Source of the DNA: Escherichia coli | GTDB taxonomy: Bacteria; Pseudomonadota; Gammaproteobacteria; Enterobacterales; Enterobacteriaceae | DNA: 64,000 nucleotides | Reading direction: 5' to 3' (one strand) | NCBI RefSeq assembly: GCF_003334255.1 | Contig: NZ_QOWU01000019.1 | Shown: one piece after another, positions 41,235 to 51,640 of the stretch | How the letters are laid out: every line of letters starts with the position of its first letter | How positions within the stretch are numbered: the first letter of the stretch is position 1 | Position numbers and translations under genes: made by a program | Notes under the pieces: model-generated | What the model was told of the DNA's origin: nothing | The model's input: the letters and a program-made list of their open reading frames with translations, nothing else | The model's database searches: none

Positions 41235-42647
41235 ATGGTAGATCAGGTAAAAGTCGTTGCCGATGATCAGGCTCCGGCTGAACAGTCGCTACGGCGCAAT
41301 CTCACAAACCGACATATTCAGCTTATTGCCATTGGCGGTGCCATTGGTACGGGGTTGTTTATGGGGTCTGGCAAAACGATTAGCCTTGCCGGGCCGTCGA
41401 TCATTTTCGTTTATATGATCATCGGTTTTATGCTCTTTTTCGTGATGCGGGCAATGGGGGAATTGCTGCTTTCGAATCTGGAATACAAATCTTTTAGTGA
41501 CTTCGCTTCCGATTTACTCGGGCCGTGGGCAGGATATTTCACCGGCTGGACTTACTGGTTCTGCTGGGTTGTAACCGGTATGGCAGACGTGGTGGCGATC
41601 ACTGCTTATGCTCAGTTCTGGTTCCCCGATCTCTCCGACTGGGTCGCCTCGCTGGCGGTGATAGTGCTGCTGTTGACGCTCAACCTTGCCACCGTGAAAA
41701 TGTTCGGTGAGATGGAGTTCTGGTTTGCGATGATCAAAATCGTCGCCATCGTGTCGCTGATTGTCGTCGGCCTGGTCATGGTGGCGATGCACTTTCAGTC
41801 ACCGACCGGTGTGGAAGCGTCATTCGCGCATTTGTGGAATGACGGCGGCTGGTTCCCGAAAGGTTTAAGTGGCTTCTTTGCCGGATTCCAGATAGCGGTT
41901 TTCGCTTTCGTGGGGATTGAGCTGGTAGGTACAACAGCTGCGGAAACCAAAGATCCGGAGAAATCACTGCCACGCGCGATTAACTCCATTCCGATCCGTA
42001 TCATTATGTTCTACGTCTTCGCGCTGATTGTGATTATGTCCGTGACGCCGTGGAGTTCGGTAGTCCCGGAGAAAAGCCCGTTTGTTGAACTGTTCGTGTT
42101 GGTAGGGCTGCCTGCTGCCGCAAGCGTGATCAACTTTGTGGTGCTGACCTCTGCGGCGTCTTCCGCTAACAGCGGCGTCTTCTCTACCAGCCGTATGCTG
42201 TTTGGTCTGGCGCAGGAAGGTGTGGCACCGAAAGCGTTCGCTAAACTTTCTAAGCGCGCAGTACCAGCGAAAGGGCTGACCTTCTCCTGCATCTGCCTGC
42301 TCGGTGGCGTGGTGATGCTGTATGTGAATCCTAGCGTGATTGGCGCGTTCACGATGATTACAACCGTTTCCGCGATTCTGTTTATGTTCGTCTGGACGAT
42401 TATCCTTTGCTCGTACCTGGTTTACCGCAAACAGCGTCCTCATCTGCATGAGAAGTCGATCTACAAGATGCCGCTCGGCAAGCTGATGTGCTGGGTATGT
42501 ATGGCGTTCTTTGTGTTCGTGGTCGTGTTGCTGACACTGGAAGATGACACTCGCCAGGCGCTGTTGGTCACCCCGCTGTGGTTTATCGCACTGGGGCTGG
42601 GCTGGTTGTTTATTGGTAAGAAGCGGGCTGCTGAACTGCGGAAATAA
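41235..42647 (+). CDS. cycA: D-serine/D-alanine/glycine transporter CycA (APC family)
   Basis: 470 aa, 12-TM amino-acid permease; MVDQVKVVADDQAPAEQSLRRNLTNRHIQLIAIGGAIGTGLFMGSG…. Confidence 0.9.
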   Translation: MVDQVKVVADDQAPAEQSLRRNLTNRHIQLIAIGGAIGTGLFMGSGKTISLAGPSIIFVYMIIGFMLFFVMRAMGELLLSNLEYKSFSDFASDLLGPWAGYFTGWTYWFCWVVTGMADVVAITAYAQFWFPDLSDWVASLAVIVLLLTLNLATVKMFGEMEFWFAMIKIVAIVSLIVVGLVMVAMHFQSPTGVEASFAHLWNDGGWFPKGLSGFFAGFQIAVFAFVGIELVGTTAAETKDPEKSLPRAINSIPIRIIMFYVFALIVIMSVTPWSSVVPEKSPFVELFVLVGLPAAASVINFVVLTSAASSANSGVFSTSRMLFGLAQEGVAPKAFAKLSKRAVPAKGLTFSCICLLGGVVMLYVNPSVIGAFTMITTVSAILFMFVWTIILCSYLVYRKQRPHLHEKSIYKMPLGKLMCWVCMAFFVFVVVLLTLEDDTRQALLVTPLWFIALGLGWLFIGKKRAAELRK

Positions 42648-42691
42648 CCGCATTATCATGCTGGATGGCGCAATGCCATCCAGCTTTTAGA

Positions 42692-43354
42692 TTACTCACC
42701 CGCCAGCGCGCGTGGGAACAGTACATTGTTTTCCAGACTGATGTGATCCATCAGGTCATCAATCAGTTCATTAATGCCGTTATACATCGCTTTCCAGGTG
42801 GTGCAGGCTTCTGGCGGCGGTGTGACGTTATTGGTAGTGTGTTTGATCACTTCCAGCAGTTCGCCCGCTTCATCGTGCTCGCTTTCCATTACGCTGATTG
42901 GCCCCATTGCCTGGCTGCCCATGCCTTGTTTGATCATCGGGAAGAGGATCTGCTCTTCTTTCATCATGTGGCTGGAAAGCTCTTCATGCAGCATGGTCAG
43001 GTATTTTGTCAGCCCTTTTGGCACGCTCGGTTTGTCGGCGTGAACGCGCTCGACTTTAGTCGCTTGCAGGATCAGCTCCGGCAGTTGCTCGCGGTGACGA
43101 TCGTGGTAGCGCACGATGATATGGTCGATGATTTCTGCCAGCGGGGCGCTACGCCAGTCTTTCTCAATCGGTTGTTCAGCAAGCTTTGCCAGCTCAGCTT
43201 CAATGACCTCAACATCCAGTTCTTTACGTGCCGCCGCACGCGCCAGCGTTTGCTTACCGCCGCAGCAGTAATCCATATCATATTTACGAAACAGAGCCGA
43301 AGCGCGAGGGATAGAGAGCGCCAGTTCACCTAAAGGTTGGTCGCGATAAGCCAT
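42692..43354 (-). CDS. ytfE: Iron-sulfur cluster repair di-iron protein YtfE (RIC)
   Basis: 220 aa, [42 protein letters not shown]… with hemerythrin-like HxxxE motifs. Confidence 0.9.
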
Positions 43355-43380
43355 AGCTGATACCTCATTCTTAATAAGAT

Positions 43381-43403
43381 AAGATGTATTTTAAATGCAT
43401 CTT
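43381..43403. promoter_or_regulatory. NsrR operator in the ytfE promoter
   Basis: Near-perfect 23-bp palindrome AAGATGTATTTTAAATGCATCTT, matching the NsrR consensus AAGATGCATTTAAAATACATCTT; ~27 bp upstream of the ytfE start codon. Confidence 0.75.
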
Positions 43404-43461
43404 TAAGGCAAATGCTATAACCCTTACGTAGCAGAGGCTTATTTAACTCACTGCCAGTATG

Positions 43462-44436
43462 TCAACTTTCTGAGACAGATTCAGTTAAAGGCTTTTCCGG
43501 TTTTGCTCTGACTGCAATGACCACGCCAACCACTAACAGCGCGATACCGCTCAGCGTCATCAGCGGCGGCATTTGCTGGCGTATCAAAAAGGTGTACAGC
43601 AAACCTGCCAGTGTTTCGAAAACGATCAGCGGCCCGAGAATCACTGTCGGTAATCGCTGGCTGGCGACGTTCCAGCAGAGTGCGCCAACCCATGAGCAAA
43701 GCACGGCTATCGCAACCATCAGACTAATAAACACCAGCGGACGGGGGCCAAAAGGTAAGGAGAAGTCCGGCGTTTGTATATTCAGCCAGTAACAGGCGAC
43801 GAGATAGCCGATGAGAGAAACCGGCAGCGTGACCAGCGCCTGCGCCGTCGCCCACATCATCGGATGTTTGTCGGGATTTTCCCGCAGCCAGCGGGCGTTG
43901 CGCAGGGCATACCATGCCCAGCAGACCACGGAAACTAACGCTAGCACGATGCCAGAGGTATAACGTGCCCAGTCAAAATCGGGGAGTCCGTGGTTTAACT
44001 CAGCAATATTCACACACGCCAGGCCGATGCCAATACAAATCAGTGCCGGGGCGAGTTTTCCCCACGCGAGTTTGCCGTCGCGCTGGCTATAAAGCAGATT
44101 GGCAAAGACAGGAATGACCACCGGCAGGGTGCCAATAATCATCGTAGAAACAGGCGCGCCAGTACGTTGAATGGCACTGGCAAGGCAGAAGTAATAGATG
44201 AGGTTGCCCATCATAGTGAGCATCAAGGCGGTAAGCCAGTCGCGACGCGCCAACTGACGCAGACGCACGCGTCCCAGCCAGGCAATGGGTAGCGCAATTA
44301 ACCCTAACGCCAGATAACGCCCCATCGACTGCAACATCGCCGGGTATTCCGGCACGATCAACGGCCCGACAAAAATAAGCCCCCACATCAACCCTGCTAA
44401 CAGGGCGTACAGCACGCCGCTAATCATTACTGGCAT
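43462..44436 (-). CDS. ytfF: Inner membrane DMT-superfamily (EamA-like) transporter YtfF
   Basis: 324 aa polytopic membrane protein in the conserved ytfE-ytfF-qorB context. Confidence 0.8.
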   Translation of the reverse strand: MPVMISGVLYALLAGLMWGLIFVGPLIVPEYPAMLQSMGRYLALGLIALPIAWLGRVRLRQLARRDWLTALMLTMMGNLIYYFCLASAIQRTGAPVSTMIIGTLPVVIPVFANLLYSQRDGKLAWGKLAPALICIGIGLACVNIAELNHGLPDFDWARYTSGIVLALVSVVCWAWYALRNARWLRENPDKHPMMWATAQALVTLPVSLIGYLVACYWLNIQTPDFSLPFGPRPLVFISLMVAIAVLCSWVGALCWNVASQRLPTVILGPLIVFETLAGLLYTFLIRQQMPPLMTLSGIALLVVGVVIAVRAKPEKPLTESVSES

Positions 44437-44535
44437 CCATTGGTCTGTCAGAAGAAACGTTCAGGAAGCAGACATGATTGCTCCCGGCATCCCGTCATTA
44501 TCAGAGAGGATGCGGGAGGATGCCACTTTAATTAA

Positions 44536-47931: not shown

Positions 47932-48120
47932 CAGGGACATCCTTTTATCATCGGGAATACGAAAGAAAAGGGAGAATAAACGCCTTACTTATAGAACAGT
48001 GAAGAATGCCACAATTTTACGCTTTGAAAATGATGACACTATCACAGTTGGCGCATTCATTAACGATAGGGTATAAGTAAAACAATAAGTTAACACCGCT
48101 CACAGAGACGAGGTGGAGAA

Positions 48121-49962: not shown

Positions 49963-49985
49963 ACGGCTCCTGATTCAGGAGCCGT
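49963..49985. terminator. Bidirectional terminator-like hairpin between convergent ytfK and ytfL
   Basis: Perfect stem acggctcc/ggagccgt with 7-nt loop. Confidence 0.55.
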
Positions 49986-51344: not shown

Positions 51345-51509
51345 ATCTTATCCGACCTTTCAGGCCAGATCCTCGGAAGGGGAAGTTGATTAATTTGTGT
51401 GAAATACACATTGAAAGCCGATTCGAAGAAAGTGAACCGGCATTTTCAGTGGCTAGTATAGCGTAAGGTACTGTAAAGTCGCCAGAGGGTTAAAATTCAG
51501 ACTGCTGAT

Positions 51510-51640
51510 AAATGCAATACTGCCTGATGCGCTATGCCAATCAGGCCTACGCAGTCCTTGCAATATATTGAATTTGGACGATTTTGTAGGCCTGGTAAGG
51601 CGTTTACGCCGCATCTGGCATAAATAAAGCGCACTTTATC
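51510..51640. repeat. REP/BIME-type extragenic palindromic repeats
   Basis: gcctgatgcg…caggcctac and taggcctggtaaggcgtttacgccgcatctggca units between msrA and ytfL; boundaries approximate. Confidence 0.5.

What the first reader, a model, noticed from the sequence alone, without database searches (positions are those of the whole stretch)
43355..43461. Textbook NsrR palindrome upstream of ytfE
AAGATGTATTTTAAATGCATCTT is an almost perfect 11-1-11 palindrome matching the NsrR consensus, placed where ytfE is known to be nitric-oxide regulated. It is a useful internal control that motif-level reading of this window is reliable.
Basis: partly seen in the sequence, partly recalled or inferred. Interest (0 to 1): 0.2.

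Follow-up and report, generated by a model that had tools for sequence, protein, structure and literature searches.

The report
Known NsrR operator at ytfE promoter
This is the already well-characterised binding site of the nitric-oxide-sensing repressor NsrR in front of the E. coli iron-sulfur repair gene ytfE; it is real, strongly supported and ordinary.

Summary
Confirmed, and already known. The 23-bp motif lies at window 43381-43403, inside the quoted interval 43355-43461, which is the whole ytfF-ytfE intergenic gap. It ends 26 nt upstream of the ytfE ATG. ytfE is 42692-43354 on the minus strand. On the ytfE strand the site reads AAGATGCATTTAAAATACATCTT, with 10 of 11 arm pairs complementary.

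Palindromy alone is not remarkable: 4 sites in the window reach >=10/11, against 0.57 expected. The sequence-specific match is what counts. A PWM built from 25 published NsrR sites, with ytfE's own site left out, scores it 30.15 of a possible 31.1 bits (P about 8.5e-13). The next best hit in the window scores 13.35.

The site is identical to K-12 MG1655. It differs by one base from CFT073, where it is the top NsrR ChIP-seq/PatSer 11-1-11 site and ytfE is induced 69.6-fold by nitrate-derived NO.

All 80 ytfE loci fetched from about 25 enterobacterial genera carry the site 24-27 nt before the ATG. Conservation is 94% in the site against 46% in the upstream spacer.

Rival readings (Fur, FNR, IscR, RNA hairpin) fail. 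The overlap of the operator with the -10 hexamer (TAAAAT) is inferred, not shown.

Extras: a decayed NarL/NarP-like site upstream, and an A/G operator polymorphism within E. coli.

The parts
43381..43403 (-). NsrR operator: 11-1-11 inverted repeat, AAGATGCATTT-A-AAATACATCTT on the ytfE strand
   Evidence: Exact match. Held-out PWM 30.15 bits, P = 8.5e-13. Identical to K-12. 94% column conservation across 81 sequences. The orthologous CFT073 site is ChIP-seq positive.
43393..43403 (-). Promoter-distal half-site AAGATGCATTT
   Evidence: 11-mer PWM 15.4 of a maximum 15.47 bits. Listed as a ytfE half-site in PMC5320621 Table 2.
43381..43391 (+). Promoter-proximal half-site AAGATGTATTT (read on the + strand). 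It carries the single departure from symmetry, at 43387.
   Evidence: 11-mer PWM 14.59 bits. Position 43387 is A in 38 and G in 43 of 81 enterobacterial sequences, read on the ytfE strand. G in CFT073.
43388..43393 (-). Inferred sigma-70 -10 hexamer TAAAAT embedded in the centre of the operator
   Evidence: Inference. T, A, A and T at hexamer positions 1, 2, 5 and 6 are invariant in 81/81 sequences. Variation is confined to hexamer positions 3 and 4 (TAAAAT, TAATAT, TATAAT). This fits my recollection of the Bodenmiller & Spiro 2006 abstract that the repeat overlaps the -10, a paper not held in the library. No TSS data found. The strict promoter scan found no full -35/-10 pair.
43418..43433 (-). 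Candidate NarL/NarP 7-2-7 site, decayed in Escherichia (TGCTACG-TA-AGGGTTA); possible activator site overlapping the weak -35
   Evidence: Second conserved block. It scores >=12/14 to TACYYMT-NN-AKRRGTA in 42 of 81 loci, at a 29-nt offset from the operator in 75 of 81 loci (null P(>=12) about 0.001). In the window it scores only 10/14 (null P about 0.06) at offset 30. Rodionov 2005 predicted a NarP site for dnrN/ytfE.
43363..43366 (-). Shine-Dalgarno GAGG of ytfE, 8 nt before the ATG
   Evidence: Read from the sequence. GAGG columns invariant in 81/81 sequences.
42692..43354 (-). ytfE (RIC), di-iron iron-sulfur cluster repair protein; the regulated gene
   Evidence: ORF. NCBIfam NF008221, 416.7 bits against a cutoff of 254. 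RefSeq annotation in identical strains.
43462..44436 (-). ytfF (DMT-family transporter), upstream neighbour on the same strand; bounds the promoter region
   Evidence: ORF. RefSeq annotation. No terminator-like site between ytfF and ytfE.

Best explanation
The 23-bp inverted repeat at 43381-43403 is the operator through which the NsrR repressor shuts off the ytfE promoter. NsrR is an Rrf2-family, iron-sulfur-cluster-containing homodimer. In this strain it is encoded outside the window. Each winged-helix subunit of the cluster-loaded dimer reads one AAGATGCATTT half-site. The operator is centred on a -10-like hexamer (TAAAAT, 43393-43388), so bound NsrR would exclude RNA polymerase. When nitric oxide nitrosylates the cluster, or iron is limiting, NsrR loses DNA affinity. 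ytfE is then transcribed and YtfE/RIC repairs NO-damaged iron-sulfur centres. Shown here: the site's presence, its near-maximal NsrR PWM score, its identity to the K-12 site, and its strict positional and sequence conservation across genera. Taken from the literature: in vivo NsrR occupancy, and NO/NsrR-dependent induction of ytfE. Inferred: the exact -10 overlap and the steric-occlusion step.
For: Sequence and statistics: (30.15 of 31.1 bits, P = 8.5e-13, unique in the window). Gene identity. Identity with K-12 MG1655 and a one-base difference from CFT073. CFT073 ChIP-seq peak 50 bp upstream of ytfE, best PatSer 11-1-11 site in that genome (ln P -25.13), and ytfE 69.6-fold up with nitrate: PMC5320621; the same paper cites K-12 ChIP-chip binding at ytfE. 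Comparative prediction of the site, plus Spiro's communication that the repeat mediates NsrR repression of ytfE: PMC1274295. The RegulonDB-derived NsrR consensus taaGatGCatttsarataCayCtt matches 22 of 24 positions (compared by eye). PytfE is used as an NsrR-dependent NO reporter in EHEC: PMC7336997. Phylogenetic footprint: 80 of 80 loci have a 23.8-31.0-bit site 24-27 nt before the ATG, with 94% conservation against 46% in the upstream spacer. nsrR is present in 5426 of 5426 E. coli genomes. Rrf2 mechanism: a [4Fe-4S] NsrR dimer on a 23-bp 11-1-11 operator, with binding abolished by NO, shown for Streptomyces coelicolor NsrR (PMC4432287 and PMC9338935).
Against: Nothing contradicts the assignment. 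Several gaps remain. No binding or expression experiment exists for this exact strain. The ytfE transcription start was not found in any held source, and the strict sigma-70 scan finds no complete promoter, so the -10 overlap is an inference. A/T richness at the centre is also part of the NsrR motif itself, so a -10-like centre is partly expected. The structural and biochemical mechanism is established for the Streptomyces orthologue, whose operator sequence differs. The cluster type of E. coli NsrR was not addressed here.
Confidence: 0.96

Rival explanations
1. The palindrome is only the AT-rich core promoter (-10 region) of ytfE, symmetric by chance, and no repressor reads it.
For: 11-1-11 repeats with >=10/11 pairs are not rare (4 in the window, 0.57 expected). 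The centre is a good -10 hexamer. The gap is AT-rich (GC 0.35).
Against: The outer arm positions (AAGATGC...GCATCTT, with R in place of G in the second arm) have no role in sigma-70 recognition, yet they are 89-100% conserved across about 25 genera while the adjacent spacer is 46% conserved. They match an NsrR PWM trained on other genes at P about 1e-12. ChIP-seq shows NsrR on the orthologous site.
Confidence: 0.01
2. The site is bound by a different iron- or oxygen-responsive regulator (Fur, FNR or IscR), which would explain the reported derepression of ytfE in fur mutants and under iron limitation.
For: The Salmonella fur-mutant microarray lists ytfE as 10-fold up and among genes with a putative Fur motif (PMC3212961).
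Against: The best Fur-box match in the region is 11/19, the mode of the shuffled null, and it lies in the ytfE coding sequence. FNR best is 7/10, the null mode. IscR type 1 best is 14/25. The same paper lists no evidence of direct Fur binding for ytfE. An indirect Fur/iron effect through the NsrR cluster is the simpler reading; iron-limitation derepression of NsrR targets is recalled from the Bodenmiller & Spiro 2006 abstract.
Confidence: 0.02
3. The inverted repeat acts at the RNA level, as a hairpin terminating ytfF transcripts or structuring the ytfE leader.
For: It lies 59 nt downstream of the ytfF stop codon on the same strand. No other terminator is predicted in the gap.
Against: The repeat arms do not pair with each other in the minimum-free-energy or centroid fold of the surrounding 61 nt. 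Folding energy is -8.5 kcal/mol against -7.2 +/- 2.2 for shuffles, z = -0.6. The stem would be AU-rich with a 1-nt loop and no T-run, and the terminator scan found none. No Rfam family matches here.
Confidence: 0.01

Closest known systems
E. coli K-12 MG1655 ytfE NsrR operator (NC_000913.3, about 4432010-4432032)
   Same: The 23-bp sequence is identical, the distance to the ATG is the same, and the flanking genes cycA/ytfE/ytfF are the same.
   Different: There are three substitutions in the 151 nt compared, all outside the operator: 43413 (A against T) and 43458-43459 (TA against CG).
E. coli CFT073 ytfE NsrR site (ChIP-seq peak, Table 4 of PMC5320621)
   Same: Same locus and position. It is the top-scoring 11-1-11 site in that genome, bound in vivo, and ytfE is NO/nitrate-induced there.
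   Different: CFT073 has G instead of A at site position 17, which makes a perfect palindrome (30.96 against 30.15 bits). The exact 57-mer carrying the window allele occurs in 3334 E. coli genomes. The one carrying the CFT073 allele occurs in 885.
Other full NsrR operators of E. coli (hmp, hcp, ygbA, yeaR, tehA)
   Same: Same 11-1-11 geometry and the AAGNTGCATTT-type half-site.
   Different: These score 20.0-25.9 bits on the same PWM. The ytfE site is closer to the consensus than any of them.
Streptomyces coelicolor NsrR-hmpA1 operator complex (PDB 7B0C)
   Same: An Rrf2 dimer on a 23-bp 11-1-11 pseudo-palindrome. The [4Fe-4S] form binds and NO abolishes binding.
   Different: The operator sequence is different (AACACGAATATCATCTACCAATT), and ScNsrR binds E. 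coli hmpA only very weakly. ScNsrR makes no base contacts in the central 7 bp, whereas here the centre is highly conserved, plausibly because it doubles as the -10.
yeaR-yoaG-type promoter architecture (NarL activator site near -43.5 plus NsrR repression)
   Same: In many enterobacterial genera the ytfE upstream region has a good 7-2-7 NarL/NarP-like site at a fixed 29-nt offset upstream of the NsrR operator. The yeaR regulation by NarL and NsrR is cited in PMC5320621. The -43.5 position is from my memory.
   Different: In this E. coli window the 7-2-7 match is only 10/14 and is shifted by 1 nt. No experiment on NarL/NarP at ytfE was found.

Membership tests
NsrR (Rrf2-family) 11-1-11 operator of Enterobacteriaceae | Two 11-bp half-sites of the AAGATGCATTT type, inverted and separated by exactly 1 bp | tested here: met
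   43381-43403. Half-site scores are 15.4 and 14.59 of a maximum 15.47 bits, and 10/11 arm pairs are complementary.
NsrR (Rrf2-family) 11-1-11 operator of Enterobacteriaceae | Significant score against a matrix of independently defined NsrR sites | tested here: met
   The PWM from 25 CFT073 sites, excluding ytfE, gives 30.15 bits, P = 8.5e-13 (ln P -27.8). A PWM from ChIP-positive sites only gives 29.09 bits, P = 3.5e-12. The published cut-off was ln P -14.28, computed with the authors' own matrix.
NsrR (Rrf2-family) 11-1-11 operator of Enterobacteriaceae | Located in the promoter of a gene of the nitrosative-stress response, overlapping core promoter elements | tested here: inconclusive
   The site lies 26 nt upstream of the ytfE ATG, in the only intergenic gap: met. 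The overlap with the -10 rests on a conserved TAAAAT-type hexamer and on recollection of Bodenmiller & Spiro 2006. No TSS was found.
NsrR (Rrf2-family) 11-1-11 operator of Enterobacteriaceae | Evolutionary conservation of the site relative to the flanking non-coding DNA | tested here: met
   80 of 80 loci from about 25 genera carry it. Identity is 94% in the site against 46% in the upstream spacer. The distance to the ATG is 24-27 nt.
NsrR (Rrf2-family) 11-1-11 operator of Enterobacteriaceae | Occupied by NsrR in vivo or in vitro | not testable with these tools
   Literature only. There is a ChIP-seq peak at the CFT073 orthologue, and PMC5320621 cites K-12 ChIP-chip binding at ytfE.
NsrR (Rrf2-family) 11-1-11 operator of Enterobacteriaceae | Downstream gene derepressed by NO or by loss of NsrR | not testable with these tools
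   Literature only. ytfE is 69.6-fold up with nitrate in CFT073. The PytfE reporter responds to an NO donor in EHEC. Spiro's communication is reported in PMC1274295.
NsrR (Rrf2-family) 11-1-11 operator of Enterobacteriaceae | Cognate nsrR gene present in the genome | tested here: inconclusive
   nsrR is not in the window (tblastn and blastn negative). It is present in 5426 of 5426 complete E. coli genomes, including strain 720632, which is 100% identical to window 42600-44500. Its presence in this strain is therefore near-certain but was not directly observed.
NarL/NarP 7-2-7 site (TACYYMT-NN-AKRRGTA), considered for the second conserved block 43418-43433 | Two inverted heptamers with 2-bp spacing matching the consensus above chance | tested here: not met
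   The window scores 10/14 (null P about 0.06). Only the promoter-proximal heptamer AGGGTTA is good (6/7). The feature is met in other genera: >=12/14 in 42 of 81 loci, null P about 0.001.
Fur box / FNR site / IscR type 1 site | Consensus match above the shuffled background in the ytfE upstream region | tested here: not met
   Fur 11/19, FNR 7/10 and IscR 14/25. The Fur and FNR scores sit at the mode of their shuffled nulls; no null was run for IscR.

The most novel reading that the evidence does not exclude
The most novel reading not excluded concerns evolutionary tuning of the ytfE promoter in Escherichia. First, an A/G polymorphism at operator position 17 gives an imperfect palindrome (exact 57-mer in 3334 genomes) or a perfect one (885 genomes). 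It could set lineage-specific NsrR affinity and hence the NO threshold or basal level of ytfE. Second, a NarL/NarP-type activator site that is well preserved 29 nt upstream of the operator in many other enterobacterial genera has decayed and shifted by 1 nt in Escherichia. That would imply loss of direct nitrate/nitrite activation, leaving NsrR as the sole dedicated control.
Probability: 0.2. Interest if true: 0.25.

Novelty: already known. Interest (0 to 1): 0.08.

Why it matters
As a discovery it does not matter, because this is one of the best-documented NsrR operators. It is the strongest consensus match in E. coli, and the ytfE promoter is already used as an NO biosensor. Its value here is as a positive control. 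A motif read by eye from raw sequence was verified by a held-out PWM, by cross-genus footprinting and by published ChIP-seq. Motif-level calls from the first stage can therefore be trusted when they are this specific. The check also shows that 'near-perfect palindrome' alone is a weak criterion in a 64-kb window.

Tried and rejected
- Palindromy as evidence: rejected as insufficient. The window has 4 sites at >=10/11 against 0.57 expected, and two GC-rich perfect 11-1-11 repeats occur elsewhere.
- The first Python simulation timed out and was re-run vectorised.
- The strict sigma-70 and terminator scan of 43300-43520 found nothing, so the promoter had to be inferred from conservation.
- The primary K-12 papers are not held in the library: Bodenmiller & Spiro 2006 failed by DOI and by PMC id, and no PMC id was listed for Partridge 2009.
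- ytfE TSS searches found nothing: full-text searches, the Kim 2012 TSS supplements, and Conway 2014, whose supplements are not held.
- Fur, FNR and IscR consensus scans were at background.
- The RNA hairpin/terminator reading is rejected (z = -0.6). There is no Rfam family in the gap.
- I expected nsrR to be in the window, since it lies 25.8 kb from ytfE in K-12. It is absent, because the 5' 24 kb is an iha/lactate-utilisation island.
- NarL/NarP 7-2-7 membership is not met in this window, although it is met in other genera.

Full report
**Observation.** The string AAGATGTATTTTAAATGCATCTT occurs exactly once in the window, at 43381-43403 on the + strand. The finding's coordinates, 43355-43461, are the full 107-bp gap (GC 0.35) between two minus-strand ORFs. 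The ORF 42692-43354 is YtfE: NCBIfam equivalog NF008221, 416.7 bits against a cutoff of 254. The ORF 43462-44436 is the DMT-family transporter YtfF. cycA lies at 41235-42647 on the + strand. The locus is E. coli. 5415 of 5426 complete genomes hold at least 80% of window 42600-44500, and several match at 100% identity, including ATCC 11775. Read on the ytfE strand the site is AAGATGCATTT-A-AAATACATCTT. It ends 26 nt upstream of the ATG, and a GAGG Shine-Dalgarno lies 8 nt before the ATG.

**Is it more than chance?** As a palindrome, no. Ten of 11 arm pairs are complementary, but four 11-1-11 repeats in the window reach >=10/11. The expectation is 0.57 per 64 kb, and about 41% of first-order Markov simulations contain at least one. 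As an NsrR site, yes. I built a symmetrised PWM from the 27 sites in Table 4 of the CFT073 ChIP-seq study (PMC5320621), leaving out ytfE's own site and one duplicate. The window site scores 30.15 bits of a possible 31.1. That is higher than any training site (maximum 25.9). P is 8.5e-13 on a uniform background and 1.2e-11 on a 65% AT background. The next best hit in the window scores 13.35 bits with E about 0.5. A PWM from the 15 ChIP-positive sites alone gives 29.09 bits, P = 3.5e-12.

**Relation to characterised sites.** Over the 151 nt compared, the window differs from K-12 MG1655 at three positions, all outside the operator, so the 23-mer is identical. CFT073 differs at one operator position: G instead of A at position 17 on the ytfE strand (window 43387). 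This makes a perfect palindrome. In CFT073 this site is the best-scoring 11-1-11 NsrR site in the genome (PatSer ln P -25.13). It coincides with an NsrR ChIP-seq peak whose summit is 50 bp upstream of ytfE, and ytfE is 69.6-fold induced during anaerobic growth with nitrate. The same paper cites K-12 ChIP-chip binding at ytfE. Rodionov et al. 2005 predicted the site by comparative genomics. They also reported S. [quoted passage not shown] The RegulonDB-derived 24-mer consensus taaGatGCatttsarataCayCtt (PMC3035439) matches at 22 of 24 positions by my comparison. The ytfE promoter is used as an NsrR-dependent NO reporter in EHEC (PMC7336997).

**Independent comparative evidence.** A scan of species-representative genomes with YtfE returned 80 loci from about 25 enterobacterial genera. 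Every one carries a 23.8-31.0-bit site, 24-27 nt before the ATG; 64 of the 81 sequences compared (the 80 loci plus the window) have the site exactly 26 nt before the ATG. In a MAFFT alignment of the 81 distinct upstream sequences, mean identity to the window differs sharply by segment:
- 0.94 within the operator
- 0.46 in the intergenic DNA upstream of it
- 0.73 between the operator and the ATG
- 0.84 in the first 30 coding nucleotides

The outer arm positions have no role in sigma-70 recognition, yet they are 89-100% conserved. This excludes the reading that the repeat is merely an AT-rich core promoter.

**Promoter geometry (inferred).** The centre of the operator contains TAAAAT (43393-43388). 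Across 81 sequences, hexamer positions 1, 2, 5 and 6 are invariant. Only positions 3 and 4 vary, giving TAAAAT, TAATAT or TATAAT. That is the pattern expected of a -10 element. It agrees with my recollection of the Bodenmiller & Spiro 2006 abstract, which says the repeat overlaps the -10 of the ytfE, hmpA and ygbA promoters. That paper is not held, and I found no TSS data. The strict promoter scan finds no complete -35/-10 pair, which implies a weak -35. A caveat: A/T richness at the centre is also part of the NsrR motif. In the Streptomyces NsrR-DNA structure the central 7 bp make no base contacts and can be changed without loss of affinity (PMC9338935). If that holds for E. coli NsrR, the strong central conservation seen here is better explained by the dual role as a -10.

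**Mechanism.** NsrR is an Rrf2-family dimer. For the S. coelicolor orthologue, the [4Fe-4S] form binds a 23-bp 11-1-11 operator and NO abolishes binding (PMC4432287, PMC9338935). Here, the bound dimer would occlude the -10 and start region of ytfE. Cluster nitrosylation releases it, and YtfE/RIC is made. The regulator acts in trans. nsrR is not in the window but is present in 5426 of 5426 E. coli genomes.

**Rivals.**
- Fur, FNR and IscR: the consensus matches in the region are weak (Fur 11/19, FNR 7/10, IscR 14/25); the Fur and FNR scores equal the mode of their shuffled nulls, and no null was run for IscR. The reported fur-mutant effect on ytfE (PMC3212961) is more simply indirect, through iron supply to NsrR.
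- RNA hairpin or terminator: the two repeat arms do not pair with each other in the predicted fold, z is -0.6, and there is no T-run. No Rfam family lies in the gap.

**Other observations.** A second conserved block lies at 43418-43433. Its cross-genus consensus is T[G/A]CC[C/T]C[G/T]-AA-AGGG[G/T]TA, which resembles a NarL/NarP 7-2-7 site. It scores >=12/14 in 42 of 81 loci, and the block sits 29 nt upstream of the operator in 75 of the 81 (null P about 0.001). In Escherichia it scores only 10/14 and is displaced by a 1-nt insertion at 43413. Rodionov 2005 listed a NarP site for dnrN/ytfE in enterobacteria. Within E. coli, the exact 57-mer with the window allele occurs in 3334 genomes and the one with the CFT073 allele in 885. 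Nine sampled variant genomes all keep the operator and differ only in the flanks. One has the operator fused to a nikR fragment.

**Verdict.** The feature is already known and of low interest except as a positive control.

Noticed in passing
window 43418-43433 (- strand): A second conserved block lies upstream of the operator. Its cross-genus consensus, TRCCYCK-AA-AGGGKTA, resembles a NarL/NarP 7-2-7 site. It scores >=12/14 in 42 of 81 enterobacterial loci, and it sits 29 nt upstream of the operator in 75 of 81 loci. In Escherichia it scores only 10/14 (TGCTACG-TA-AGGGTTA).
   Followed up: partly
window 43413: Escherichia sequences carry one extra nucleotide between the upstream conserved block and the NsrR operator; 77 of 81 aligned sequences lack it. 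At this position the window has A, whereas K-12 and CFT073 have T.
   Followed up: partly
window 43387: There is an A/G polymorphism at operator position 17. The window and K-12 have A (imperfect palindrome; exact 57-mer in 3334 E. coli genomes). CFT073 has G (perfect palindrome; 885 genomes). Across genera the split is 38 A to 43 G.
   Followed up: partly
L092 (NZ_CM151352.1 4305633-4305796): In one E. coli genome the intact NsrR operator and upstream region are followed by an annotated nikR pseudogene fragment instead of the ytfE Shine-Dalgarno and start. This looks like a deletion or rearrangement removing the start of ytfE.
   Followed up: no
window 78-24000: The 5' part of the window is an accessory island carrying the iha siderophore receptor/adhesin, an ABC transporter, an L-lactate permease and lut genes, and a MASE1 sensor kinase. 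It is intact in only 25 of 5426 E. coli genomes. It explains why nsrR, 25.8 kb from ytfE in K-12, is not in this window.
   Followed up: partly
window 13476-13549 (+): Rfam reports a hit to Esr41 (EHEC sRNA 41) just above the gathering score (103.4 against 102). It lies inside the accessory island.
   Followed up: no
window 47932-48054 (+), 28049-28133 (+), 51406-51463 (-), 51543-51585 (-): Other Rfam gathering-level hits: ES239 sRNA (154.5 bits), RpsF leader (110.1), STnc450 (77.2) and ES036/CssrF (39.3, just above its cut-off of 37.6).
   Followed up: no
window 29594-29616 and 49963-49985; also 14297-14319: There are two perfect GC-rich 11-1-11 inverted repeats, AACGCCGACCATTGGTCGGCGTT and ACGGCTCCTGATTCAGGAGCCGT, and one 10/11 repeat. 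They are probably terminator stems. They show that palindromy alone does not single out the NsrR site.
   Followed up: no
window 43378: The window, K-12 and CFT073 have C at this position on the ytfE strand (ATCTTATT). 78 of 81 enterobacterial sequences, and some E. coli (L085, L086, L089), have A (ATATTATT). It lies just downstream of the operator, near the inferred transcription start.
   Followed up: no
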